DNA of 64,000 nt, from IMG/VR virus record IMGVR_UViG_3300045836_000008; one strand, 5' to 3'. Shown one piece after another: positions 4,040 through 55,613 of the stretch; the stretch's first letter is position 1, and every line of letters starts with the position of its first letter. Below the pieces are notes generated by a model, which was not told where the DNA came from, ran no database searches, and worked only from the letters and a program-made list of their open reading frames with translations. A program made the translations under genes and the position numbers. This DNA is from a virus. Taxonomy: Duplodnaviria; Heunggongvirae; Uroviricota; Caudoviricetes.

Positions 4040-4112
4040 GGGTCGGTAGTTTATCTGGCTAAAACGGCGGACTCCAAACCCGCAGTGCAAGGTTCAAGTC
4101 CTTGTCGGCCCG
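4040..4112 (+). tRNA. tRNA, anticodon CCA (tRNA-Trp)
   Basis: Manual cloverleaf: acceptor GGGTCGG/TCGGCCC (two G-U pairs), U8, D-stem GTTT/AAAC with GG in the D-loop, anticodon loop CTCCAAA (U33, CCA, A37), T-arm CAAGG-TTCAAGT-CCTTG, discriminator G, encoded CCA at 4113-4115. One A-C mismatch at 31-39. Confidence 0.6.
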
Positions 4113-4167
4113 CCACATACTTGACCGCCAAGAGCGCGGAACTAAAACCTGAAGAGAAGTAGAGAAG

Positions 4168-4977: not shown

Positions 4978-5099
4978 ATCACGCGTGACGTGTAGGTAGG
5001 GAAAGCAAACGGAGCATGGGAAGCGATGGTCTTGAAAACCTAGCGGATACCGCACCGGCCTACACAAACAAGCCCAACGTTGGACATCTGAAAAAGGTG

Positions 5100-5129
5100 T
5101 TGACAACGTTGGGCTTTTTCGTTTATGAT
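5100..5129 (+). promoter_or_regulatory. promoter of the conserved family (TTGACA-acgttgggctttttcgt-TTATGAT, leader TTCACTCAC...GGAG)
   Basis: Read directly. Conserved leader and GGAG precede the ATG at 5163. Confidence 0.5.
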
Positions 5130-6410: not shown

Positions 6411-6827
6411 ATGATCGTAAAAGCAGTCGAACGCGCGTATCGGGTGAAGGCCGAACGTAATTGGGACTACGTATATTGGGCCGTCGATCTTCATGGCGTG
6501 TGCCTGAAGTCGAACTACAACGCTGGCGGGTATCAGTGGATCACCGAAGACGCACCGCGTGTACTGAAGCTGCTGTCAGATCGACCCGAGACACGGATCA
6601 TTCTGTGGTCGTCGGTGTATCGAGAAGAGAAGTCCGACATCATCGGCTTCTTCCGCAAGCACGGCATTGAAGTGTGGGATTTCAACGGCAATCTGAGCGA
6701 GCCGAACACCATCGTGTCGTGCTTTGAAGAGAAGTTCTACTTCTCGATCCTGCTTGACGACAAGGCCGGGTTCGATCCTGAGACGGACTGGCGAGCCATC
6801 GAACAATTTGTTACATCGATGGACTGA
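6411..6827 (+). CDS. hypothetical protein
   Basis: ATG 5 nt after GGAG (gacGGAGaaaacATG). The ORF track extends to a TTG at 6390. Confidence 0.5.
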   Translation: MIVKAVERAYRVKAERNWDYVYWAVDLHGVCLKSNYNAGGYQWITEDAPRVLKLLSDRPETRIILWSSVYREEKSDIIGFFRKHGIEVWDFNGNLSEPNTIVSCFEEKFYFSILLDDKAGFDPETDWRAIEQFVTSMD

Positions 6828-7064
6828 TAGGAAGGACCGGGAACGCTAAATAGTAGTGTTCCCGTTGTTGACTCTTTGAGTACGGGACCGGGTTGTAGAT
6901 AGTTGAACATCATGTTCCGCGCTTCGCGCGTCGTGCTTCGCACGAAACATCATTCATGGACTTGTTACCAATGACCATGAACCCCGAAAAACCATTATAC
7001 CAACGTCCCAAAGTTGTGTCAAGCTAAATAAATTGACGCAACCCAAACACAAGGATTCACAACA

Positions 7065-8892: not shown

Positions 8893-9399
8893 ATGCCCGA
8901 AGCCGAAGACGTAACAATCGCATTGCTGCAACGGGACTATGAACAGACGCAGCAGATCGTGTCCAAGATGGACACGGCAATCGAGAAGCTAACTGATCTT
9001 GGCGTTGACATGAAGCAGATGTTGGCGCTGCATGAACAACGAATTAACCGGCTTGAACAGATCGACAACGAAATTCATGGTCTTGTTGAAAAACGTCGAA
9101 CAGAACTACAGACGGACATCAAGGACGTGGATGCGAAATTGGCGAACACTATCAAGGAAATTACGGGCGACCTAGCCAACGTCGAGACACGCATCATGAA
9201 GGCCATCGCTGACGTGAAGGAAGACATCAAGTCCGACATCAAGACCGACAAGGAAGAGAAGGCCGAGTCCGACAAGGAACTGGTCAAGCGTGTCGAAAAG
9301 CTAGAGAAGTGGCGCTGGATGATGCTAGGCGGCGGTTTCGTCGTGGGCTTCATCATCGAGAAGGTTCTGCCCCTGCTTCTACCACACGTAGGTGGTTGA
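8893..9399 (+). CDS. hypothetical coiled-coil protein with C-terminal transmembrane segment
   Basis: Heptad-rich middle region and C-terminal WRWMMLGGGFVVGFIIEKVLPLLL segment. Confidence 0.5.
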   Translation: MPEAEDVTIALLQRDYEQTQQIVSKMDTAIEKLTDLGVDMKQMLALHEQRINRLEQIDNEIHGLVEKRRTELQTDIKDVDAKLANTIKEITGDLANVETRIMKAIADVKEDIKSDIKTDKEEKAESDKELVKRVEKLEKWRWMMLGGGFVVGFIIEKVLPLLLPHVGG

Positions 9400-9486
9400 C
9401 AAAACTCCCAGACTTGGGTATAAAGACGGCTTCGGTCGTCTTTTTGCATTTTGGGGCTTGCAAAATTCCCAAGCTTGTGAGATAAT
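9396..9486 (+). promoter_or_regulatory. two tandem family promoters flanking a UUCG-loop terminator
   Basis: TTGACA aaactcccagacttggg TATAAA, then terminator AGACGGC-UUCG-GUCGUCU + UUUUGCAUUUU (about 9424-9446), then TTGCAA aattcccaagcttgtga GATAAT. Precedes the primase. Confidence 0.6.
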
Positions 9487-9523
9487 ACGGTTTCGTTAGT
9501 CAAGCAACACCACGGAGTACCAC

Positions 9524-20186: not shown

Positions 20187-20216
20187 TTGACAAATTCCCA
20201 ACCTTGGGTTTATGAT
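20187..20216 (+). promoter_or_regulatory. family promoter TTGACA-aaattcccaaccttgggtt-TATGAT
   Basis: Palindrome CCCAACCTTGGG in the spacer. Conserved leader TTCTCTCATCG...GGAG. Confidence 0.65.
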
Positions 20217-20664: not shown

Positions 20665-20689
20665 CAAGAATTCCCAAGCTTGGTAAGAT
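20661..20689 (+). promoter_or_regulatory. family promoter TTGACA-agaattcccaagcttgg-TAAGAT
   Basis: Palindrome CCAAGCTTGG. Leader TTCTTCCATCGACAACG...AGGAG. Confidence 0.65.
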
Positions 20690-20728
20690 TCTTCCATCGA
20701 CAACGCAGCACAAACAGGAGATTCAAAC

Positions 20729-28304: not shown

Positions 28305-28547
28305 ATGACGACGAATCAATTCCTTCTTTCCGATGTTGGCTCGGATGCAACCGGCCAGACCAAGACCTTCGTGAACCTGCACGATGACGTGATCGCACCG
28401 AAGGGCGCGGTGTCTCTGTCGATTTCGACGGTCTACAACAAGGCCCGGAACCCGGACGCCCACATCTCGAAGCTGGCCCTGACGGTCGGTTCCAAGGACA
28501 AGCTGCGTGAACTCGGTCAGTTCTTGATCGACTTTGCGAATGCTTGA
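28305..28547 (+). CDS. hypothetical protein
   Basis: 80-aa ORF after a family promoter. Confidence 0.5.
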   Translation: MTTNQFLLSDVGSDATGQTKTFVNLHDDVIAPKGAVSLSISTVYNKARNPDAHISKLALTVGSKDKLRELGQFLIDFANA

Positions 28548-28573
28548 CGACATTCCCAAGGTTGGTGTATCAT
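28544..28573 (+). promoter_or_regulatory. family promoter TTGACG-acattcccaaggttggtg-TATCAT
   Basis: Palindrome CCAAGGTTGG. Leader AGCGATTCATCAACCTTGG repeats the half-site. Confidence 0.6.
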
Positions 28574-28599
28574 AGCGATTCATCAACCTTGGAAAGACT

Positions 28600-30667: not shown

Positions 30668-30718
30668 TTGACGAATTCCCAACGTTGCGATATGATTCAC
30701 ACATGCCGCAACGTTGGG
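30668..30718 (+). promoter_or_regulatory. family promoter TTGACG-aattcccaacgttgcga-TATGAT with a perfect 12-bp inverted repeat (CCCAACGTTGCG / CGCAACGTTGGG) bracketing the -10
   Basis: The two arms are exact reverse complements about 17 nt apart and flank TATGATTCACACATGC. Confidence 0.65.
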
Positions 30719-33046: not shown

Positions 33047-33120
33047 TCCCAAGGTTGGGAATGCTTGACAAGACTCCCGGTTGCGCGTATGATTCAACTC
33101 ATACCAACGCACCGGGAGTT
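33047..33120 (+). promoter_or_regulatory. family promoter: palindrome TCCCAAGGTTGGGA upstream, TTGACA-agactcccggttgcgcg-TATGAT, and inverted repeat ACTCCCGGTTGCG / CGCACCGGGAGT bracketing the -10, followed by UUUUC
   Basis: Read directly. The second arm plus the U-run could terminate read-through transcripts. Confidence 0.6.
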
Positions 33121-35919: not shown

Positions 35920-35968
35920 TTGACAGGGATTCCCAGACTTGATATAATGTTTGCTTCAAGTCTGGGAA
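35920..35968 (+). promoter_or_regulatory. family promoter TTGACA-gggattcccagacttga-TATAAT with a perfect 12-bp inverted repeat (TTCCCAGACTTG / CAAGTCTGGGAA) bracketing the -10
   Basis: Read directly. Confidence 0.65.
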
Positions 35969-37628: not shown

Positions 37629-38741
37629 ATGAAGCAATATGATGTCGTGGTGTACCGTGGGCGCTTTCAAGGAATGCACGAAGCGCACCTGAAGACTATT
37701 CTGATGGGTCTGCAACTCGCCAAGAAGGTCGTCGTGGTCATCGGTAGTGCGAACGAACCGCGCACCTACTACCGCAACCCGTTCTTCGAGAACGAACGTA
37801 TCGAGATGATCCGTGCGGCACTGGCCGATCACTTCCGGCACGATGACGTGGTATTCACGACCGTCGAAGATCATCCCGACGACAACGTATGGGCTGAAAT
37901 GGTCGCAGAGAACGTGCAAATAATGATCGATGCACTAGACCACGAAGGCGCATTTGGTGACAAGCTGAATCGTCTGCGCATCGGTCAGATTGGCTACAAG
38001 AAGGACGACAATTGCGTTCGTGACGTGGACCTGTTCCCGCAGTGGGAATACATCGATACGCCGCACTTCGAACCGCTCGATGCCACGAAGGTCCGCGAAA
38101 TCTACTTCAGCAAGACGCCGCTGACGTACCTGATGGGTGTGTGCCCCGCACCTGTAATCCGATGGCTGTCCGACTTCCGTGCAACGGAAGCGTTCGACCT
38201 GATGATGCAGGAAAAGGAATACTGCGACAACTACAAGAAGCAGTTCGAACATCTCGAATATGCGCCTACGTTCGTGACTGGTGACAACGTGCCGTTCCAA
38301 GACGACACGATCCTTCTGGTGAAGCGCAAGAACCATCCGGGCAAGGGTCTGTGGGCTTTCGCTGCTGGCTTCTTCAACGCTGCTGACCGTCTGACCAAGA
38401 ACGGCGAACTGGTCAAGGCCGACAAGTCCGTGTTCGACTGCGCCGTTCGTGAACTGTTCGAAGAGACGAACGCGAGTCTCACGAAAGAAGAACTGAAAGA
38501 AGCGTGCATCGCTGAAGGTCTGTTCGACGCAGAAGGTCGCGATCCGCGTGGCCGCATCGTGACGCAAGCATATGTCTACAACTTCGACGGTCGTGAAGTC
38601 TTCTCGGTCGAAGCATCGGACGATGCAGAAGAAGTGCGCCGCTTCCACATCTCGGAAGTGAATCGCCGCATGATGTATGCCGACCACTACAGCATCTTCT
38701 TGCAAGCGCTCGAATCCTATCGCAATTCGAAGTACAACTGA
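37629..38741 (+). CDS. nadM: bifunctional nicotinamide-mononucleotide adenylyltransferase / Nudix hydrolase (NadM-Nudix)
   Basis: N-terminal cytidylyltransferase-fold motif YRGRFQGMHEAH (the HxGH variant) and C-terminal Nudix box (GKGLWAFAAG...AVRELFEETNASL). Confidence 0.8.
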   Translation: MKQYDVVVYRGRFQGMHEAHLKTILMGLQLAKKVVVVIGSANEPRTYYRNPFFENERIEMIRAALADHFRHDDVVFTTVEDHPDDNVWAEMVAENVQIMIDALDHEGAFGDKLNRLRIGQIGYKKDDNCVRDVDLFPQWEYIDTPHFEPLDATKVREIYFSKTPLTYLMGVCPAPVIRWLSDFRATEAFDLMMQEKEYCDNYKKQFEHLEYAPTFVTGDNVPFQDDTILLVKRKNHPGKGLWAFAAGFFNAADRLTKNGELVKADKSVFDCAVRELFEETNASLTKEELKEACIAEGLFDAEGRDPRGRIVTQAYVYNFDGREVFSVEASDDAEEVRRFHISEVNRRMMYADHYSIFLQALESYRNSKYN

Positions 38742-38766
38742 AAACTCTCTACAGGAATCAAACCAC

Positions 38767-40128
38767 ATGCTGCAAACGAAAAACATCCAACTGTCGCAAA
38801 ACTTCGTTCTCGAATCGGATTCGTACAAGTTCAGCCACAACCCGGAAATCTACCCGGAAGGCGCAGAAGCGCTGCACTCGTATCTGTCGGCCCGCGTGAA
38901 GGGTTCGCGCGTGGTGCAGTTCGGCCTTCAGATGTGGATCAAGAAGAAGCTGCTGGCCCCGATCACGCTCGCGATGATCGATGAAGCCGAAGACTTCATC
39001 ACTCGTCACATCGGCCCCGGTGGTTTCGACCGTGGCTTCTGGGAACACATCCTGCACACGTACAACGGCTACATCCCGCTGGTGATCCGTGGTCTGCCGG
39101 AAGGCACTGTGACCGACAGCTACGACACGCTGGTGACGGTTGACTGTTTCGACCCGCGCGTGTTCCCGCTGGCGCAGCACATCGAAGCATCGCTGCAATC
39201 TGACCTGTGGTACAGCACGACCATCGCGACGAACGATCTGGAAAACTACGAAGTCGCGAAGTCGCACTTCGATCTGTTCTCGGACAACCCGGTTCTTCTC
39301 GCGTTCATGCTTCACGACTTCGGCGCACGCGGTGTGACCTGTGAAGAACAACGCCAGATTGGCGGCGCAGCGCACCTGATCTTCTTCCAAGGTTCGGACA
39401 CGATCAGCGGCATCCGTGCGGCAAACCTGTTCTACAACTGCGAGATGGCCGCGTATTCGGTTCGCGCCACGGAACATAGCATCCAGTGCGCCTACGGCCC
39501 CGAAGGGCAAGAAGAGTACATCCGGCGCGTCCTGAAGGCACATGCGAAACCGGGCAACATCGTGTCGCTGGTTCTCGACGGCTACAACGTGTGGCGCGAA
39601 GCCGAACTTCTCTGCACGAAGTTCAAAGACCAAATCATCGAAAGCGGCGCGAAGATCGTCTTCCGTCCCGATTCGGGTGACATGTTCGAAGTGGTTCCGC
39701 GCATTCTCGAAATGCAAGCGCAACACTTCGGCTTCACCGTGAACTCGAAGGGCAAGAAGGTCATCAACAACGTTGGTGTCATCCAAGGTGACGGCATCGA
39801 CAAGATCACGTTCATGCTGCTGATGCAGAAGGTCGTGGCCCTTGGCTATGCCCCTGAATGCGTCGTGATGGGTTCCGGTGGCGGTTTGCTTCAGAAGGTC
39901 AACCGTGACACGCTGAAGTTCGCGCAGAAGGCCGCAGCCATCAAGATCAATGGTGTCTGGGTTGACATGTTCAAAGACCCGATCACCGATCCGGGCAAGA
40001 AGTCGAAGACCGGTCGTCAAGACGATCCGCGCTTCGTCACGTTCTACGACCACGGCGAACTGTTGGTCGATGAATCGCTCGACGTGATCCGGGCACGTGC
40101 GCTCGAAGGCGCAAAAATTCGCAAGTAA
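38767..40128 (+). CDS. nadV: nicotinamide phosphoribosyltransferase (NadV/NAMPT)
   Basis: 454 aa. Family-typical segments (SDSYKFSH, GARGV, QGDGI, VMGSGGGLLQK). Adjacent to nadM as in KVP40-type phages. Confidence 0.85.
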   Translation: MLQTKNIQLSQNFVLESDSYKFSHNPEIYPEGAEALHSYLSARVKGSRVVQFGLQMWIKKKLLAPITLAMIDEAEDFITRHIGPGGFDRGFWEHILHTYNGYIPLVIRGLPEGTVTDSYDTLVTVDCFDPRVFPLAQHIEASLQSDLWYSTTIATNDLENYEVAKSHFDLFSDNPVLLAFMLHDFGARGVTCEEQRQIGGAAHLIFFQGSDTISGIRAANLFYNCEMAAYSVRATEHSIQCAYGPEGQEEYIRRVLKAHAKPGNIVSLVLDGYNVWREAELLCTKFKDQIIESGAKIVFRPDSGDMFEVVPRILEMQAQHFGFTVNSKGKKVINNVGVIQGDGIDKITFMLLMQKVVALGYAPECVVMGSGGGLLQKVNRDTLKFAQKAAAIKINGVWVDMFKDPITDPGKKSKTGRQDDPRFVTFYDHGELLVDESLDVIRARALEGAKIRK

Positions 40129-40141
40129 TCCCAAGTCTGGG

Positions 40142-40190
40142 TTGACGTAACACGAACCGACAGGTATGATATGCCTGTCGGTTTCTTTTT
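40142..40190 (+). promoter_or_regulatory. promoter TTGACG-17-TATGAT whose -10 lies in the loop of a terminator hairpin (ACCGACAGG-UAUGAUAU-CCUGUCGGU + UUCUUUUU). An upstream CCCAAGTCTGGG half-site palindrome abuts the -35
   Basis: Read directly. Combined terminator for nadV and promoter for the next gene. Confidence 0.6.
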
Positions 40191-40202
40191 GGAGTGAATC
40201 AC

Positions 40203-40493
40203 ATGGCTACTACATTCGAAGAAATCGTGAAGTTCATGTCGGGACTCACGATCAATACGGACCACGGCGTTATCATCAAGACTGCGACCGGCGAACATCG
40301 GGTCGTGATCCGCATCCCGGCGCGTGGTTATCCGCGCGTGGTGATGAAGGGTACGAACGGGCTACTGGTCGTCTACCGCCTGAAGGGCAACGTGTTGGAG
40401 AAATTAGGGTACAAGGGTACGGTCTACAGCGTCGCAGAGTTCGACAAGCTGGCGGCAAACCCGGTAGCAACAATCGAGTGGCATTCCCGGTAA
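40203..40493 (+). CDS. hypothetical protein
   Basis: ATG after GGAGTGAATCAC. Confidence 0.5.
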   Translation: MATTFEEIVKFMSGLTINTDHGVIIKTATGEHRVVIRIPARGYPRVVMKGTNGLLVVYRLKGNVLEKLGYKGTVYSVAEFDKLAANPVATIEWHSR

Positions 40494-40499
40494 AAGTAG

Positions 40500-40528
40500 T
40501 TGACACGAATTCCCAAGGTCGGTATAAT
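40500..40528 (+). promoter_or_regulatory. family promoter TTGACA-cgaattcccaaggtcgg-TATAAT
   Basis: Leader TCTCTTCATCGGTTGGACATCACTAGGAG. Confidence 0.65.
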
Positions 40529-42113: not shown

Positions 42114-42162
42114 ATCGTACCTGAACGAATTCCCAAAGCTGAGAATAGTTCGCAAAAGTTGC

Positions 42163-42226
42163 TTGACATGTAAAAGACACATCTGTAGAATGTTTCATTA
42201 TTGAAACACCAGATGTGTCTTTTCAA
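42163..42226 (+). promoter_or_regulatory. promoter TTGACA-17-TAGAAT embedded in a 13-bp-stem hairpin (AAAAGACACAUCU ... AGAUGUGUCUUUU) whose 26-nt loop contains the -10 and an inner hairpin. A weaker family-like element (CTGAAC-gaattcccaaagctgag-AATAGT) lies just upstream at 42121
   Basis: Read directly. Confidence 0.55.
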
Positions 42227-45584: not shown

Positions 45585-45909
45585 CGAAATTACAGCGGAC
45601 CAGATTGTTCACGCTGGCAACATCAAGTTCTACTTCGAAGACCTTGGCGAAACGCTGACGGTTCGGGGCTATCTGGTCAACCTTCTGCGCAGTCTGTGGG
45701 CGGAAGGTGAAGGGTTCAACAGCAAGCGCCCATACGGCAACAGCGGATGGGAATTCGATCTGTACCGCGCGCTGGTTGACGGTGGCGCGATCAAGGGCAC
45801 GCTGGACGAAGATGGGTATCTCGAAGACTTCGACCGACAAGCGGGCATCGACATGATCTACGCGATCATTGATTCGCTCGAAGGCAACGACGACGATGAA
45901 GACGACTAA
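45577..45909 (+). CDS. hypothetical acidic protein (C-terminus DDDEDD)
   Basis: 110-aa ORF. Confidence 0.45.
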   Translation: MANEITADQIVHAGNIKFYFEDLGETLTVRGYLVNLLRSLWAEGEGFNSKRPYGNSGWEFDLYRALVDGGAIKGTLDEDGYLEDFDRQAGIDMIYAIIDSLEGNDDDEDD

Positions 45910-46162
45910 GCAGGAAGCCGCCAAGATCATCGATGACAAGCTGAAACAGGCTTGGCAATTGGTCGAAGATTGCGTGAAGCTGGCCGAACATTCCGGCTGT
46001 TGCTTCGAACTTCCGTGGGGTGGTGAAGGCACGGATCAGCGCGGCATGGGTGCGACGTATGTGCCCGAGAGTGCGAGCGAGCAAGACAAGAAGTGGATGT
46101 GTAATGACGGTTGGGGTGGTAACTACTACACCGGCTGGCAACCTTCGGCTGGCACATGCTGA
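45896..46162 (+). CDS. paralog family member 6 (C-terminus ...TGWQPSAGTC)
   Basis: ATG at 45896 in frame with track ORF 45869. VKLAEHSGCCFELPW core and WGGNYYTGW. Last residue Cys. Confidence 0.5.
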   Translation: MKTTKQEAAKIIDDKLKQAWQLVEDCVKLAEHSGCCFELPWGGEGTDQRGMGATYVPESASEQDKKWMCNDGWGGNYYTGWQPSAGTC

Positions 46163-46338
46163 AGCATCGCGAGTTCTTTGACGACGAGTTCTATCGCTTC
46201 ATGCTTCGAGAGTACGAAGCGATCCGCGTGCGTCGCAAGTCCCGAAAGGGCAAACCCGACGAGTATGAGAGAATCGAACTCACACTCGACAAGCTGTTCG
46301 AAAATTTTTACAAGCAGTTCATCGACTAAGGTCACAAC

Positions 46339-46746
46339 ATGTTCAAGAAGTTCGCAGTAGCAGTAGCAGGTATGGCGCTTGCAATGTCGGCCCACGCATT
46401 CAGCGCGGCAGCGGGTCACGCATCGGTATCCGTGGCACACGTCAGTGTCGTGTCGTCGGCCCATCCGGTCGCAGTGGCCGCACCGCACGTATCGGTCGTA
46501 GAACCGGTCGCGACGGCCCACGTAGCACCAACCCCCGCCGCGAAGCCAGCAACCCCGCCTGTGGCCGCTAAACCGGCTGCAACGGCAACGTCGCAGGTTG
46601 CGAAAGAAGCGACGGTCGCAAAGACGACGCTGGTTCCGAAGGCAACCGTTCCGCACACGCCGATCACGGTGGTTCGTGGCAAGACGGCAACCGCAGCAGC
46701 GTATGCTTCGGAAGCCAGTGCAGCATCGGCGGCACGCGCGAAGTAA
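46339..46746 (+). CDS. Sec-secreted His/Val/Ser/Ala/Pro-rich low-complexity protein
   Basis: Signal peptide MFKKFAVAVAGMALAMSAHA|FS. Repeats AHVSVVSSAHPVAVAAPHVSVVEPVATAHVAP. Ala/Pro/Lys-rich tail. Confidence 0.6.
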   Translation: MFKKFAVAVAGMALAMSAHAFSAAAGHASVSVAHVSVVSSAHPVAVAAPHVSVVEPVATAHVAPTPAAKPATPPVAAKPAATATSQVAKEATVAKTTLVPKATVPHTPITVVRGKTATAAAYASEASAASAARAK

Positions 46747-46756
46747 GTAGCAGTAG

Positions 46757-46792
46757 TTGACAAGGTTGGGAATGCGCGATAGTATTCCCAAC
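46757..46792 (+). promoter_or_regulatory. family promoter TTGACA-aggttgggaatgcgcga-TAGTAT with inverted repeat TTGGGAAT / ATTCCCAA bracketing the -10
   Basis: Read directly. Confidence 0.6.
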
Positions 46793-46807
46793 AAACAAGA
46801 GTCAAAG

Positions 46808-46939
46808 ATGAAGATTGAACGCTGTCCCCGGTGCGAGAAGAACCGATACAACGATTCGCCATACAACTACGTGTGGTGGTCCGTGATGGGTGTTGGGTAT
46901 ATGTGCTGGCACTGCTTCAAGTGCCTGAAAGCTAAATAG
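46808..46939 (+). CDS. small zinc-ribbon protein (43 aa)
   Basis: MKIERCPRCEKNRYNDSPYNYVWWSVMGVGYMCWHCFKCLKAK. ATG after CAAGAGTCAAAG. Confidence 0.4.
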   Translation: MKIERCPRCEKNRYNDSPYNYVWWSVMGVGYMCWHCFKCLKAK

Positions 46940-46958
46940 TTGATCCACAATTACGCCT

Positions 46959-47852
46959 ATGGGACTGCACCCAATGAAATCATTCTCGGAACTTCGGCGC
47001 TATCTGAACGATATGCCGATCATTAGCGAAGAAATCCACCAAGACATCCACAACGTGCTGAACGGCCCACAAGACGCGCGGTTCAAGCTGAAGTCGATGT
47101 CGGATCGTATTCGCAGTCTCGTTAAGTCCGGTCAAGATCACGGTCTGGAAGACGCGAAGCCCAAGAAGGGTTCGTCGCGCGCTGTCTTCTTCCCGAAAGA
47201 ACCGATGAAGCTGAAGATCGACGGCCAAGACACGCACATGCACACGGCGCTGAAGGTTGCGTTCCCCGGCGAACTCGACAAGTACGCCAAGCACGGCGAA
47301 TCGCTTCTCGGTGAAGAACAGAACCGCGTGGAAGGCGATCATTGGGCTAACAGCCAGTACGGCGTGCTGCGCCAAGGTGATCGTCACGACGAGTTCCACA
47401 CGAACGAACACGGCTTCCTTGCGCCTGTCCTGCACTCTCACGAAGAAGGCCACTACGTTCACATGGGGAAGATCGAACCCATCAAGGCAGGTGAGTTCAA
47501 GCAGCACACCAAGGCACCGGGCTTCGAGAAGGGCATCACGCACGACGAGATGTACGACTACCTGCATCATCACTACAACGCGGCGCACGGTCAGTCCTAC
47601 GGCGGCAAGACGAAGCCCGAACGTCTGGAACAGCTTGAAGAACACCCGATGTTGGAGCGCATGCACGACTGGATGCTGAACACTGGCGCACATCCGGGCG
47701 ATCTGAACAAGCGCAACATGGGTGTATGGACGCACCCGGTGACGCAGAAGAAGCACATCGTTGTTTCTGACTTCGGCTTCACTGGTGACGTTGCCAAGAT
47801 GTACGGCGAGCGCCGCAAGCGCATGTCCCAAGCGAAGTACGGACGCTATTGA
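46959..47852 (+). CDS. His-rich hypothetical protein (about 12% His)
   Basis: 297-aa ORF with many HxH/HH pairs (HMHTALK, HSHEEGHYVHMG, YLHHHYNAAHG). Confidence 0.55.
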   Translation: MGLHPMKSFSELRRYLNDMPIISEEIHQDIHNVLNGPQDARFKLKSMSDRIRSLVKSGQDHGLEDAKPKKGSSRAVFFPKEPMKLKIDGQDTHMHTALKVAFPGELDKYAKHGESLLGEEQNRVEGDHWANSQYGVLRQGDRHDEFHTNEHGFLAPVLHSHEEGHYVHMGKIEPIKAGEFKQHTKAPGFEKGITHDEMYDYLHHHYNAAHGQSYGGKTKPERLEQLEEHPMLERMHDWMLNTGAHPGDLNKRNMGVWTHPVTQKKHIVVSDFGFTGDVAKMYGERRKRMSQAKYGRY

Positions 47853-47909: not shown

Positions 47910-47938
47910 TTGACATCCATTCCCAAGCTTGGTAGTAT
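47910..47938 (+). promoter_or_regulatory. family promoter TTGACA-tccattcccaagcttgg-TAGTAT
   Basis: Palindrome CCAAGCTTGG. Leader TAGCACATACCAACATGGAG. Confidence 0.65.
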
Positions 47939-48179: not shown

Positions 48180-48544
48180 TGGACGCGCTGATCGATGGTT
48201 TCTGGGCCGGTGTCGGGATTGCATTCTTCCTGTTCACACCGGTTTTTCTTGGCTGTTTGCGATGGGAGAAGAAGGCTATGAAAACTGTGTACATCGTGCC
48301 CGCGTGGTCGGATCAAGCAGGACAGTGCAGGATCGTCGCCACGGTCACGGCGCAGAAGTTGTCGAACGTGGCGCGCGACTACGACCACTACCCGGACAAG
48401 TGGCGTGAAGTCGGCATCATGAACAGCCAAGGCAAGCTGGTCTGCTATGACGGCAAGCCGGAAGAGCGCGCTGAAATCCTGTCGTGCGAACCGCTGGCCG
48501 CTGGTATGGTCTTCGAGTTCGAAGGAATTCATCAACCCGCTTGA
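48179..48544 (+). CDS. hypothetical membrane protein (N-terminal TM)
   Basis: GFWAGVGIAFFLFTPVFLGCL segment. ATG overlaps the upstream stop (TGATG). Confidence 0.5.
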   Translation: MDALIDGFWAGVGIAFFLFTPVFLGCLRWEKKAMKTVYIVPAWSDQAGQCRIVATVTAQKLSNVARDYDHYPDKWREVGIMNSQGKLVCYDGKPEERAEILSCEPLAAGMVFEFEGIHQPA

Positions 48545-48598
48545 CAACGAACTCCCAAGTGTGTAAGATTCTCACATCGACAACGCACTTGGGAGTTC
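48541..48598 (+). promoter_or_regulatory. family promoter TTGACA-acgaactcccaagtgtg-TAAGAT with a perfect 13-bp inverted repeat (GAACTCCCAAGTG ... CACTTGGGAGTTC) spanning the -10 and conserved leader TCTCACATCGACAACG
   Basis: The arms are exact reverse complements separated by about 24 nt. Confidence 0.65.
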
Positions 48599-48837: not shown

Positions 48838-48870
48838 CCTTCCATCGACAAACGAAACGGAGTGAAGAAC

Positions 48871-55575: not shown

Positions 55576-55613
55576 TTGACAACGCTGGCCGTCTGTGATA
55601 CTTTCAGACGGCC
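55576..55613 (+). promoter_or_regulatory. TTGACA followed by a 9-bp hairpin (GGCCGUCUG-UGAUACUUU-CAGACGGCC) whose loop carries a weak -10-like TGATACT
   Basis: Same architecture as 40142 and 42163, with a weaker -10. Confidence 0.4.

What the first reader, a model, noticed from the sequence alone, without database searches (positions are those of the whole stretch)
40128..40190. Promoters whose -10 hexamer sits in the loop of a rho-independent terminator hairpin
At 40142-40190 the -10 TATGAT lies between arms ACCGACAGG and CCTGTCGGT, followed by UUUCUUUUU. At 42163-42226 the -10 TAGAAT lies within a 13-bp-stem hairpin followed by UUUU. At 55576-55613 a weaker TGATACT lies within a 9-bp hairpin. 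This compact terminator/promoter fusion ends the upstream transcript and restarts transcription within the same 50 nt. The arrangement could also make promoter activity sensitive to DNA supercoiling or to read-through transcription.
Basis: seen in the sequence. Interest (0 to 1): 0.7.

Follow-up and report, generated by a model that had tools for sequence, protein, structure and literature searches.

The report
Early promoters straddled by RNA hairpins
In this T4-like phage, about a third of the strong early promoters sit inside an RNA hairpin that can form only in transcripts arriving from upstream; this is a real and conserved design, but it matches the composite promoter/terminator cassettes (PeSLs) already described in other T4-like phages.

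Summary
All three sites are in the sequence as described. They belong to a larger set. The window has 23 strong sigma-70-type promoters on the + strand. In 8 of them a perfect stem of at least 9 bp encloses the -10 hexamer (null 0.04% per promoter, P about 6e-22), and a ninth partly overlaps it. The hairpins persist at orthologous promoters in four related uncultivated phages. Their arm sequences differ, with compensatory changes and G·U pairs, which suggests selection on a + strand RNA structure.

Only site 1 (40155-40190) is a canonical intrinsic terminator, and its U tract is kept in three of four relatives. Site 2 has a marginal UUUU. Site 3 and the six other hairpins have no U tract. In three unflagged cassettes the 3' arm covers the Shine-Dalgarno sequence.

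The window comes from a T4-like myovirus (gp41-type helicase). The cassettes share a conserved box, ATTCCCA-N4-TGG, precede small genes without known domains, and bound gene replacements between relatives. This fits the published PeSL elements of T4-like phages, where stem-loops overlapping the -10 box are a named subclass. I confirmed that geometry directly in phage phi1.

Interest is moderate to low.

The parts
40128..40141 (+). Conserved box ATCCCAAGTCTGGG (family consensus ATTCCCA-N4-TGGG). It lies directly after the NAMPT stop codon and directly upstream of the -35 of site 1.
   Evidence: The box is in the same place in L001-L003 and L022.
40142..40170 (+). Site 1 promoter: -35 TTGACG (40142-40147), 17-nt spacer, -10 TATGAT (40165-40170). 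The predicted start is near 40177.
   Evidence: Both hexamers are invariant in five phages. The start site is inferred from the usual 7-nt distance.
40155..40190 (+). Site 1 hairpin plus U tract: arms 40155-40164 and 40174-40183, the -10 in the loop, then TTTCTTTTT (40182-40190). It looks like an intrinsic terminator for the NAMPT transcript.
   Evidence: -21 kcal/mol, z -4.9. One search lists it as terminator-like. One search gives 93.8% of cells paired, 2 compensatory pairs, and G·U pairs.
42163..42191 (+). Site 2 promoter: TTGACA, 17-nt spacer, TAGAAT.
42172..42223 (+). Site 2 composite hairpin: outer arms 42172-42185 and 42210-42223 (14 bp), -10 at 42186-42191, and an inner hairpin at 42192-42207. 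The last four bases are UUUU, paired with AAAA.
   Evidence: -24.9 kcal/mol, z -8.5. Orthologous promoters carry hairpins with different arms and no T tract.
55576..55613 (+). Site 3: -35 TTGACA (55576-55581), extended -10 TGaTACTTT (55596-55604), and arms 55587-55595 and 55605-55613. There is no U tract.
   Evidence: L017 and L020 have GGGAAATGTG/CACATTTCCC-type arms at the same place.
28544..28592 (+). Further promoter with a hairpin round the -10 (arms 28556-28564 and 28584-28592).
30668..30718 (+). Further promoter with a hairpin round the -10 (12-bp arms 30678-30689 and 30707-30718). The left arm is the conserved box.
   Evidence: The orthologue in L013 has different but fully complementary arms.
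33065..33119 (+). Promoter with a hairpin round the -10. Its 3' arm (33111-33119) contains the Shine-Dalgarno GGGAG of the next gene.
   Evidence: The probability that the SD is unpaired is 0.01 in read-through RNA and 0.46 in the promoter's own RNA. It is conserved in L013.
35920..35968 (+). Promoter with a perfect 13-bp hairpin round the -10 (arms 35930-35942 and 35956-35968).
   Evidence: The hairpin is kept in L022 and is weak in L001-L003.
46757..46792 (+). Promoter whose -10 (46780-46785) lies in the loop and 3' arm of the hairpin GTTGGGAAT/ATTCCCAAC (46765-46773 and 46784-46792).
48541..48598 (+). Promoter with a 13-16-bp hairpin round the -10. The 3' arm (48586-48598) contains the SD GGGAG.
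   Evidence: SD unpaired probability is 0.00 versus 0.66. The L016 orthologue keeps the hairpin through three G·U pairs.
5070..5129 (+). Sister arrangement. A terminator-like hairpin (arms 5070-5082 and 5104-5116) encloses the -35 (5100-5105), and its U tract lies in the promoter spacer before the -10 (5124-5129).

Best explanation
The three sites are members of a family of about 23 short expression cassettes that tile the early, variable region of an uncultivated T4-like myovirus. Each cassette has a sigma-70-type promoter, the box ATTCCCA-N4-TGG, a conserved start region, GGAG, and an ATG.

In about 40% of the cassettes an inverted repeat straddles the -10 and the start site. RNA that reads in from the upstream gene contains both arms and folds into a 9-16-bp hairpin. 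RNA started at the cassette's own promoter contains only the 3' arm and stays open. The hairpin therefore acts only on read-through RNA and insulates the cassette from upstream transcription.

- At site 1 the hairpin is followed by a U tract and most likely works as an intrinsic terminator.
- At site 2 it is at best a weak terminator or attenuator.
- At site 3 and most other sites it is a U-less hairpin whose effect is inferred. Candidates are attenuation or pausing as reported for PeSL stem-loops, or 3'-end protection.
- At 33065, 48541 and 35920 the 3' arm covers the ribosome-binding site. There the hairpin should block translation of read-through RNA.

Shown: the sequence anatomy, the non-randomness, conservation with covarying arms, and cassette-bounded gene swaps. 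Inferred: promoter activity, the start sites, termination, and translational masking.
For: - **Non-random.** 8 of 23 promoters have a stem of at least 9 bp round the -10, against a null of 0.04-0.4%. Pairing between each spacer and its own 5'UTR is bimodal and exceeds permuted pairings.
- **Stable folds.** RNA folds are -17.6 to -28.9 kcal/mol with z -4.9 to -8.5.
- **Site 1 conservation.** It is kept in L001-L003 and L022 with two compensatory pair changes and several G·U pairs.
- **Other sites.** 30668, 33065, 48541, 42163 and 55576 keep a hairpin round the -10 in relatives, with different arm sequences.
- **Frequency across phages.** 19 of 63 strong promoters in the window plus relatives have such a hairpin. 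Stem mismatches are G·T 8 versus A·C 3 under type-blind scoring, which leans towards a + strand RNA structure.
- **T4-like origin.** The gp41-type helicase is 54% identical to those of T4-like cyanophages. The window also encodes RNR, NAMPT, an NMNAT-Nudix protein and a ligase.
- **Cassette family.** ATTCCCAA occurs 18 times against 1.25 expected. TCCCANNNNTGG occurs 17 times against 1.26 expected.
- **Cassette-bounded gene replacement.** In L022, homology ends right after the site 1 3' arm and resumes at the -35 of the next promoter.
- **Published precedent.** PeSLs are sigma-70-like promoters plus stem-loops. Five subclasses are defined by stem-loop position, most commonly between -35 and -10 or overlapping -10. 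One stem-loop terminated as well as rrnB T1 (PMC2839356, section 14).
- **Direct check in phi1.** GGGGATAT-agcata-ATATCCCC and GGGTGTAT-atcata-ATACACCC overlap the -10 and have no U tract.
- **SD masking.** Calculated for 33065, 48541 and 35920 only.
Against: - There are no transcript data. Promoter firing, start sites and 3' ends are all inferred.
- Only 1 or 2 of the 9 hairpins have a U tract. The phage also uses canonical GC-rich terminators with U tracts elsewhere (6366, 9422, 47877, 55865). The U-less hairpins may therefore not terminate.
- The site 1 covariation test on five sequences is not significant on its own (116 of 500 shuffles reach the observed score).
- The 35920 hairpin is only weakly kept in L001-L003.
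- The G·T versus A·C asymmetry rests on 11 mismatches.
- A hairpin terminator that sits on top of the promoter cannot protect that promoter from occlusion by incoming polymerases.
Confidence: 0.72

Rival explanations
1. The main role is translational gating of the T4 gene e type. [quoted passage not shown] Termination would be incidental.
For: In 33065, 48541 and 35920 the 3' arm covers the SD. The calculated SD accessibility rises from 0.01, 0.00 and 0.26 in read-through RNA to 0.46, 0.66 and 0.78 in the promoter's own RNA. This is conserved in L013 and L016. The principle is established for T4 e, soc, 49 and I-TevI (PMC3014915, section 29).
Against: At the three flagged sites, and at 28544, 30668 and 46757, the 3' arm ends 8-46 nt upstream of the SD. 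SD accessibility does not increase in the promoter's own RNA there (site 1: 0.37 in read-through RNA vs 0.35 in own RNA; site 2: 0.72 vs 0.38; site 3: 0.59 vs 0.61). The T4 examples use late promoters to set timing, whereas these are all early-type promoters.
Confidence: 0.15
2. The inverted repeats act in DNA. They could be binding or cleavage sites for a phage protein, for example an early-promoter shut-off factor or a recombinase or structure-specific nuclease that drives cassette shuffling. They could also be cruciforms that make the promoter sensitive to supercoiling.
For: The box ATTCCCA-N4-TGG is sequence-conserved, partly palindromic, and forms the left arm in five hairpins. Cassette swaps have junctions at the hairpin edge. 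The PeSL authors speculated about a stem-loop-binding recombination protein (PMC2839356, discussion).
Against: The arm sequences of sites 1-3 are unrelated to the box and to each other, and they differ between orthologues. No sequence-specific protein could recognise them all. G·T mismatches are tolerated more often than A·C (L003 and L016), which is an RNA signature. Loops of 9-29 nt make cruciform extrusion costly (established DNA energetics).
Confidence: 0.08
3. The hairpins are 3'-end stabilisers or processing sites for the upstream mRNA. They would protect against 3' exonucleases after Rho-dependent or run-off termination, rather than act as terminators.
For: Most have no U tract. They sit 14-60 nt after stop codons. 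T4 early RNA is known to be shaped by Rho and by nucleases (PMC2988021; PMC3014915).
Against: This does not explain why the hairpin must straddle the -10 rather than sit anywhere in the gap. The stems are too short for classical RNase III sites (own knowledge). Site 1 has a conserved U tract.
Confidence: 0.05

Closest known systems
PeSLs (promoter-early stem-loops) of T4-like phages RB49/phi1, T4/PST and KVP40/nt-1 (Arbiol, Comeau & Krisch 2010, PMC2839356; Comeau et al. 2014, PMC4122927)
   Same: - Repeated intergenic cassettes in the variable regions of T4-like myoviruses.
- A near-consensus sigma-70 early promoter plus a stable stem-loop at variable positions, including overlapping the -10 box.
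- An SD and ATG at the 3' end.
- Located in front of small orphan genes.
- They bound insertions and replacements between related phages.
- The stem-loops are mostly U-less.
- Even the start region is alike: CATCGACAAC here and CATCGAAAC in phi1.
   Different: - The conserved box differs: ATTCCCA-N4-TGG here, GGGG...CCCC in phi1.
- The genome has 53% G+C, and the region upstream of -35 is only mildly A/T-rich (54% vs 46%).
- In phi1 the -10-overlapping stem-loops are 8 bp with a 6-nt loop and lie wholly upstream of the start site.
- Here the stems are 9-16 bp with 9-29-nt loops that hold the whole -10 and the start site, so the 3' arm is part of the 5'UTR.
- One site (site 1) has a canonical U tract.
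- Three sites put the SD in the 3' arm.
T4 genes e, soc, 49 and I-TevI: a promoter placed inside an inhibitory RNA hairpin (McPheeters et al. 1986; reviewed in PMC3014915)
   Same: The promoter lies in the DNA that encodes the 5' half of a hairpin. Long transcripts fold, while transcripts started at the promoter lack the 5' arm.
   Different: The T4 cases use late promoters (TATAAATA) and always sequester the SD or AUG to delay translation. Here the promoters are early sigma-70 type, and only 3 of 9 hairpins touch the SD. None of the three flagged sites does.
Canonical Rho-independent (intrinsic) terminators
   Same: Site 1 has a stable hairpin followed by UUUCUUUUU, 27 nt after a stop codon. 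The U tract is conserved in three relatives.
   Different: Site 2 has only UUUU within the stem. Site 3 and six other hairpins have no U tract. The loops are unusually long because they hold a promoter element.
Hairpin promoters of phage N4 virion RNA polymerase
   Same: A promoter associated with a DNA inverted repeat.
   Different: N4 promoters are 5-7-bp stems with a 3-nt loop, read by a phage polymerase on extruded single-stranded hairpins (own knowledge). Here there are consensus -35 and -10 boxes, 9-29-nt loops, variable arm sequences, and a T4-like genome.

Membership tests
PeSL (promoter-early stem-loop cassette) | Near-consensus sigma-70-type promoter (-35, 16-18-nt spacer, -10) | tested here: met
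   There are 21 sites with at least 10 of 12 matches on the + strand and 2 on the - strand. Sites 1, 2 and 3 score 10/12, 11/12 and 9/12 with TG.
PeSL (promoter-early stem-loop cassette) | Stable stem-loop at a variable position relative to the promoter (upstream of -35, over -35, in the spacer, over -10) | tested here: met
   Over -10: nine sites. Over -35: 5100. In the spacer: the mini-palindrome CCCA-N4-TGGG. Upstream of -35: 20140, 9422, 47877, 55865.
PeSL (promoter-early stem-loop cassette) | A/T-rich tract upstream of the -35 box | tested here: inconclusive
   The 25 nt upstream of -35 are 54% A+T against 46% for the window. This is a mild enrichment, far from the A-tracts of phi1.
PeSL (promoter-early stem-loop cassette) | Shine-Dalgarno sequence and start codon at the 3' end of the motif, with the whole gap between stop and start occupied | tested here: met
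   Gaps of 58-134 nt end in GGAG-N6-8-ATG.
PeSL (promoter-early stem-loop cassette) | Lies in the variable early regions of a T4-like myovirus, in front of small orphan genes | tested here: met
   The gp41-type helicase is 54% identical to those of T4-like cyanophages. Related contigs are about 168 kb. Nine of ten downstream proteins have no Pfam match and one has a weak gp30.8 hit.
PeSL (promoter-early stem-loop cassette) | Cassettes flank insertions, deletions and replacements between related phages | tested here: met
   L022 has a gene replaced between the site 1 hairpin and the next -35. L001 has about 1 kb of extra DNA between two promoters. L016 lacks three genes next to promoter 46757.
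PeSL (promoter-early stem-loop cassette) | Demonstrated promoter and terminator activity; recombination mini-circles | not testable with these tools
   These need reporter assays, transcript mapping and inverse PCR on phage DNA.
Rho-independent terminator | Stable G+C-containing hairpin just downstream of a stop codon, in the sense orientation | tested here: met
   Folds are -21, -24.9 and -17.6 kcal/mol. The hairpins start 27, 59 and 14 nt after the stop codons.
Rho-independent terminator | U tract (at least 5 U in about 8 nt) directly after the stem | tested here: inconclusive
   Met at site 1 (TTTCTTTTT). Marginal at site 2 (TTTT inside the stem, then CAACCCC). Not met at site 3 (TTAACCTTAAC) or at the six other hairpins. 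Lost at the site 1 orthologue in L022.
Rho-independent terminator | Transcript 3' ends at the U tract | not testable with these tools
   No transcriptome is available for this uncultivated phage.
T4 gene e-type translational gating | SD or start codon sequestered in the hairpin of the long transcript and free in the promoter's own transcript | tested here: not met
   For the three flagged sites, SD accessibility does not increase in own RNA (site 1: 0.37 in read-through RNA vs 0.35 in own RNA; site 2: 0.72 vs 0.38; site 3: 0.59 vs 0.61). The feature is met only at 33065, 48541 and 35920.
N4-type hairpin promoter | 5-7-bp stem with a 3-nt loop and no -35/-10 boxes | tested here: not met
   The stems are 9-14 bp, the DNA loops are 9-24 nt, and consensus -35 and -10 boxes are present.

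The most novel reading that the evidence does not exclude
The -10-straddling hairpins may be one general 'transcript-origin discriminator' that makes each orphan-gene cassette autonomous. The same design would kill read-through RNA by termination when a U tract follows (site 1). It would silence read-through RNA translationally when the 3' arm is the ribosome-binding site (33065, 48541). A cassette would then keep its own expression level wherever recombination drops it. The conserved box ATTCCCA-N4-TGG, which can sit either in the spacer or upstream of -35, would be the site of a still unknown phage factor for early shut-off or cassette recombination.
Probability: 0.25. Interest if true: 0.55.

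Novelty: new member of a known kind. Interest (0 to 1): 0.3.

Why it matters
- PeSL-type composite promoter/terminator cassettes are not confined to the low-GC enterobacterial and vibrio T4-like phages where they were defined. They also occur, with a different conserved box, in a 53% G+C lineage known only from metagenomes.
- The covarying arms give comparative evidence that the stem-loop is selected as RNA. The original papers argued this from one reporter assay.
- The cassettes are compact, apparently insulated expression units of about 60-80 nt. They could serve as synthetic-biology parts if their activities are confirmed.
- They mark recombination joints that help explain how orphan genes are swapped between related phages.

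Tried and rejected
- **Chance.** Rejected by random-position and shuffle controls.
- **A known RNA family.** The Rfam gathering search of the whole window found only tRNA-Trp.
- **A close cultured relative with annotation or transcript maps.** Megablast against 50,697 phage records gave only 48-61-nt hits. The 670-aa - strand protein had no tblastn hit.
- **A copied mobile palindrome.** The arm sequences of the nine hairpins are unrelated, apart from those built on the box, so they are not copies of one element.
- **N4-type hairpin promoters.** The geometry does not fit.
- **The box as a general anti-SD.** Spacer-to-own-5'UTR pairing is bimodal. About nine cassettes pair strongly and the rest are at background, so this holds for only a few cassettes.
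- **Site 1 covariation statistics.** The trend is in the right direction but is not significant with five sequences.
- **Collection scan for the promoter+box pattern.** It returned four contigs that are the window's own phage or 98-99% strains of it, plus one 5-kb contig from another sample that shares no detectable DNA similarity with the window and showed no such promoter in the hairpin scan. It added no new diversity.
- **The metagenome scan.** It added one useful relative, L022.
- **ONT-cappable-seq papers on Pseudomonas phages.** A search for described promoter-in-terminator overlaps found none.
Full report
**1. The observation**

*Site 1.*
- The stop codon TAA is at 40126-40128.
- The box ATCCCAAGTCTGGG is at 40128-40141.
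- The -35 TTGACG is at 40142-40147, the spacer is 17 nt, and the -10 TATGAT is at 40165-40170.
- The arms are AACCGACAGG (40155-40164) and CCTGTCGGTT (40174-40183), followed by TTTCTTTTT (40182-40190).
- GGAG is at 40191 and the ATG at 40203.
- As RNA it folds into 14 pairs with a 3-nt loop: -21 kcal/mol, z -4.9.
- It is the only one of the three sites that the terminator scan lists.

*Site 2.*
- TTGACA is at 42163, the spacer is 17 nt, and TAGAAT is at 42186-42191.
- The 14-bp arms are at 42172-42185 and 42210-42223, round an inner hairpin.
- The fold is -24.9 kcal/mol, z -8.5.

*Site 3.*
- TTGACA is at 55576, and TGaTACTTT is at 55596-55604.
- The 9-bp arms are at 55587-55595 and 55605-55613.
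- The fold is -17.6 kcal/mol, z -5.4.
- The tail is TTAACCTTAAC, so there is no U tract.

**2. The sites are part of something larger**

- The overall number of promoter-like matches is at chance level.
- The strong matches are not. Sites with at least 10 of 12 consensus matches number 21 on the + strand and 2 on the - strand.
- Almost all of them lie in the short gaps between + strand genes.
- Most carry a conserved box, ATTCCCAAgnTTGG, between -35 and -10.
  - ATTCCCAA occurs 18 times against 1.25 expected.
  - TCCCANNNNTGG occurs 17 times against 1.26 expected.
- They also share a start region, tcttcCATCGACAAC, and GGAG-N6-8-ATG.
- Among 23 + strand promoters, 8 have a perfect stem of at least 9 bp that encloses the -10: 28544, 30668, 33065, 35920, 40142, 42163, 48541 and 55576.
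  - The comparable rate is 0.4% at random positions.
  - It is 0.04% when each promoter's downstream 50 nt is shuffled, giving a binomial P of 6e-22.
- A ninth promoter, 46757, has the -10 partly in the 3' arm.
- Pairing between each spacer and its own 5'UTR is bimodal. About nine cassettes pair strongly and the rest are at background.
- Other cassettes place the stem-loop elsewhere.
  - At 5100 a terminator-like hairpin encloses the -35 and puts its U tract in the spacer.
  - Conventional terminators sit just upstream of -35 at 9422, 20140, 47877 and 55865.

**3. Origin of the window**

- The window encodes a gp41-type helicase, ribonucleotide reductase, NAMPT, an NMNAT-Nudix protein and an ATP-dependent ligase. 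It also has one tRNA-Trp.
- The helicase is 54% identical to those of T4-like cyanophages.
- No phage record is close at the DNA level.
- IMG/VR holds three relatives of about 168 kb (L001; L002/L017; L003/L013/L020) and a 9.5-kb fragment (L016). A soil-type metagenome contig adds L022.
- The combined promoter+box pattern occurs only in a handful of viral contigs, nearly all of them this phage or close strains.

**4. Conservation**

*Site 1.* It is present in all four relatives with invariant hexamers, and with the box in the same place just upstream of the -35. The arms change in concert:

| Phage | 5' arm | 3' arm | Note |
|---|---|---|---|
| window | AACCGACAGG | CCTGTCGGTT | |
| L002 | GGACCAACAGG | CCTGTTGGTCC | |
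| L003 | GGACCGACAGG | CTTGTTGGTCC | two G·U pairs |

- On the five-sequence alignment, 93.8% of cells pair and two pairs change on both sides.
- The shuffle control is not significant (116 of 500).
- The T tract is kept in L001-L003.

*Other sites.* Orthologous promoters keep a hairpin round the -10, with different arms:
- 30668 versus L013: CCCAACGTTGCG versus TTCCCGCGTTTGG, each fully matched by its own 3' arm.
- 33065 versus L013.
- 48541 versus L016: three G·U pairs.
- 55576 versus L017 and L020.
- 42163: four different arm sets in four lineages.
- 35920: kept in L022 but only weakly in L001-L003.

*Across all loci.*
- In the window plus relatives, 19 of 63 strong promoters have such a hairpin.
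- With mismatch-type-blind scoring, stem mismatches are G·T 8 and A·C 3.
- This suggests selection on a + strand RNA structure, on a small sample.

**5. What the hairpins do**

- The -10 is in the loop, and starts are expected about 7 nt downstream of it. In typical cassettes this is the A of CATCG. At site 1 it is near 40177.
- The promoter's own RNA therefore carries only the 3' arm. Only RNA entering from upstream can fold (inference from the anatomy).
- Site 1 has every sequence feature of an intrinsic terminator.
- The general feature is the hairpin, not the U tract.
  - Site 2 has four U within the stem, and its orthologues have none.
  - Site 3 and six other hairpins have none.
  - L022 keeps the site 1 hairpin but not its T tract.
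- In three unflagged cassettes the 3' arm covers the SD. The calculated SD accessibility in read-through RNA versus own RNA is:
  - 33065: 0.01 versus 0.46
  - 48541: 0.00 versus 0.66
  - 35920: 0.26 versus 0.78
- At the flagged sites it does not increase in own RNA: 0.37 versus 0.35 at site 1, 0.72 versus 0.38 at site 2, and 0.59 versus 0.61 at site 3.
- The most economical reading is that the hairpin acts on read-through RNA only and insulates each cassette. It does so by termination where a U tract follows, by attenuation or 3'-end protection elsewhere, and by SD masking in a subset.
- One caveat is my own inference. An incoming polymerase crosses the whole promoter before it reaches the terminator, so the fusion saves space but does not prevent promoter occlusion.

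**6. Comparison with what is known**

*PeSLs.*
- Arbiol, Comeau and Krisch described PeSLs in RB49 and phi1. [quoted passage not shown]
- Five subclasses are defined by stem-loop position. The most common are between -35 and -10, or overlapping the -10 box.
- One stem-loop reduced lacZ expression as much as rrnB T1.
- PeSLs flank the indels between the two phages (PMC2839356, section 14 and discussion).
- Comeau et al. extended this to T4/PST and KVP40/nt-1 (PMC4122927).

*Direct check in phi1.* I ran my own scan on phi1 (EF437941, 100-150 kb). It shows both classes, with no U tract and a start region, acacaCATCGAAAC, resembling the one here:
- Stem-loop in the spacer: TTGACA-GGGGATC-ggga-GATCCCC-TATAAT.
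- Stem-loop overlapping the -10: GGGGATAT-agcata-ATATCCCC and GGGTGTAT-atcata-ATACACCC.

*Cassette-bounded swaps.* The shuffling signature of PeSLs is also present here.
- In L022 the gene after site 1 is replaced by an unrelated one. Homology to the window stops right after the 3' arm and resumes exactly at the -35 of the next promoter. The gene beyond that promoter is 99% identical.
- L001 has about 1 kb of extra DNA between two promoters.
- L016 lacks three genes next to promoter 46757.

*Downstream genes.* Nine of ten have no Pfam match.

*Differences from the published PeSLs.*
- The conserved box is different.
- The A/T enrichment upstream of -35 is only mild (54% vs 46%).
- The stems and loops are longer and hold the whole -10 and the start site.
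- Site 1 has a canonical U tract.
- Some 3' arms cover the SD. That subset follows the logic of T4 genes e, soc, 49 and I-TevI, where a promoter lies inside an inhibitory hairpin (PMC3014915, section 29). Those cases use late promoters, however.

**7. Verdict**

- The 'terminator' label is well founded for site 1, weak for site 2, and not met for site 3.
- The design is a new instance, in a new high-GC lineage, of an already described kind of element (PeSL).
- The supercoiling idea has no support.
- All activities (promoter firing, termination, translational masking) remain inferred. The tests that would settle them are listed under next steps.

Noticed in passing
window 40128-40141, 42129-42143, and inside most promoter spacers (e.g. 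20194-20208, 20670-20683, 47919-47932): The conserved, partly palindromic box (A)TTCCCA-N4-TGG(G) is strongly over-represented. It usually lies in the -35/-10 spacer, but at site 1 it sits upstream of -35, and it does so in all five phages. Its position is therefore flexible and its role is unknown. It could be an operator, a recombination site, or an element of read-through RNA.
   Followed up: partly
window 5070-5129: A terminator-like hairpin (arms 5070-5082 and 5104-5116, -30 kcal/mol) encloses the -35 box of promoter 5100. Its U tract lies in the promoter spacer. This is the mirror image of the flagged arrangement.
   Followed up: partly
window 9399-9490: Two tandem promoter-like sites surround terminator 9422-9443. 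The first (TGACAA...TATAAA) overlaps the upstream gene's stop codon, and its -10 overlaps the terminator's 5' arm. The second is TTGCAA-17-GATAAT and carries the box.
   Followed up: no
window 6826-7022, - strand: A perfect consensus promoter (TTGACA-17-TATAAT, with TG) points leftwards in a 237-nt gap of an otherwise + strand region. The 163 nt downstream fold at -54 kcal/mol (z -3.4) and contain only a 35-codon ORF without an SD. This is a candidate small or antisense RNA.
   Followed up: partly
L022 4400-4815 versus window 40184-40500; L001 5740-6870; L016 1470-1594 versus window 45896-46974: Gene replacement, insertion and deletion between relatives have their junctions at the promoter cassettes. 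In L022 homology ends at the 3' arm of site 1 and resumes at the next -35.
   Followed up: yes
window, +1 regions of most cassettes (e.g. 20690-20705, 48570-48585, 48838-48853): The conserved start region tcttcCATCGACAAC resembles the phi1 PeSL start region (acacaCATCGAAAC). From my own knowledge it also resembles the T7 A1 start (CCATCGAG). This hints at a shared initial-transcribed-sequence preference among strong early promoters.
   Followed up: no
window 4040-4115: A single tRNA-Trp (CCA) lies about 70 nt downstream of promoter 3940. The spacer of that promoter carries the box in inverted orientation.
   Followed up: no
window 37629-40128: An NAD salvage pair, an NMNAT-Nudix (NadR-like) protein and NAMPT, lies immediately upstream of site 1. 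A similar pair is known from KVP40-type phages (own knowledge).
   Followed up: no
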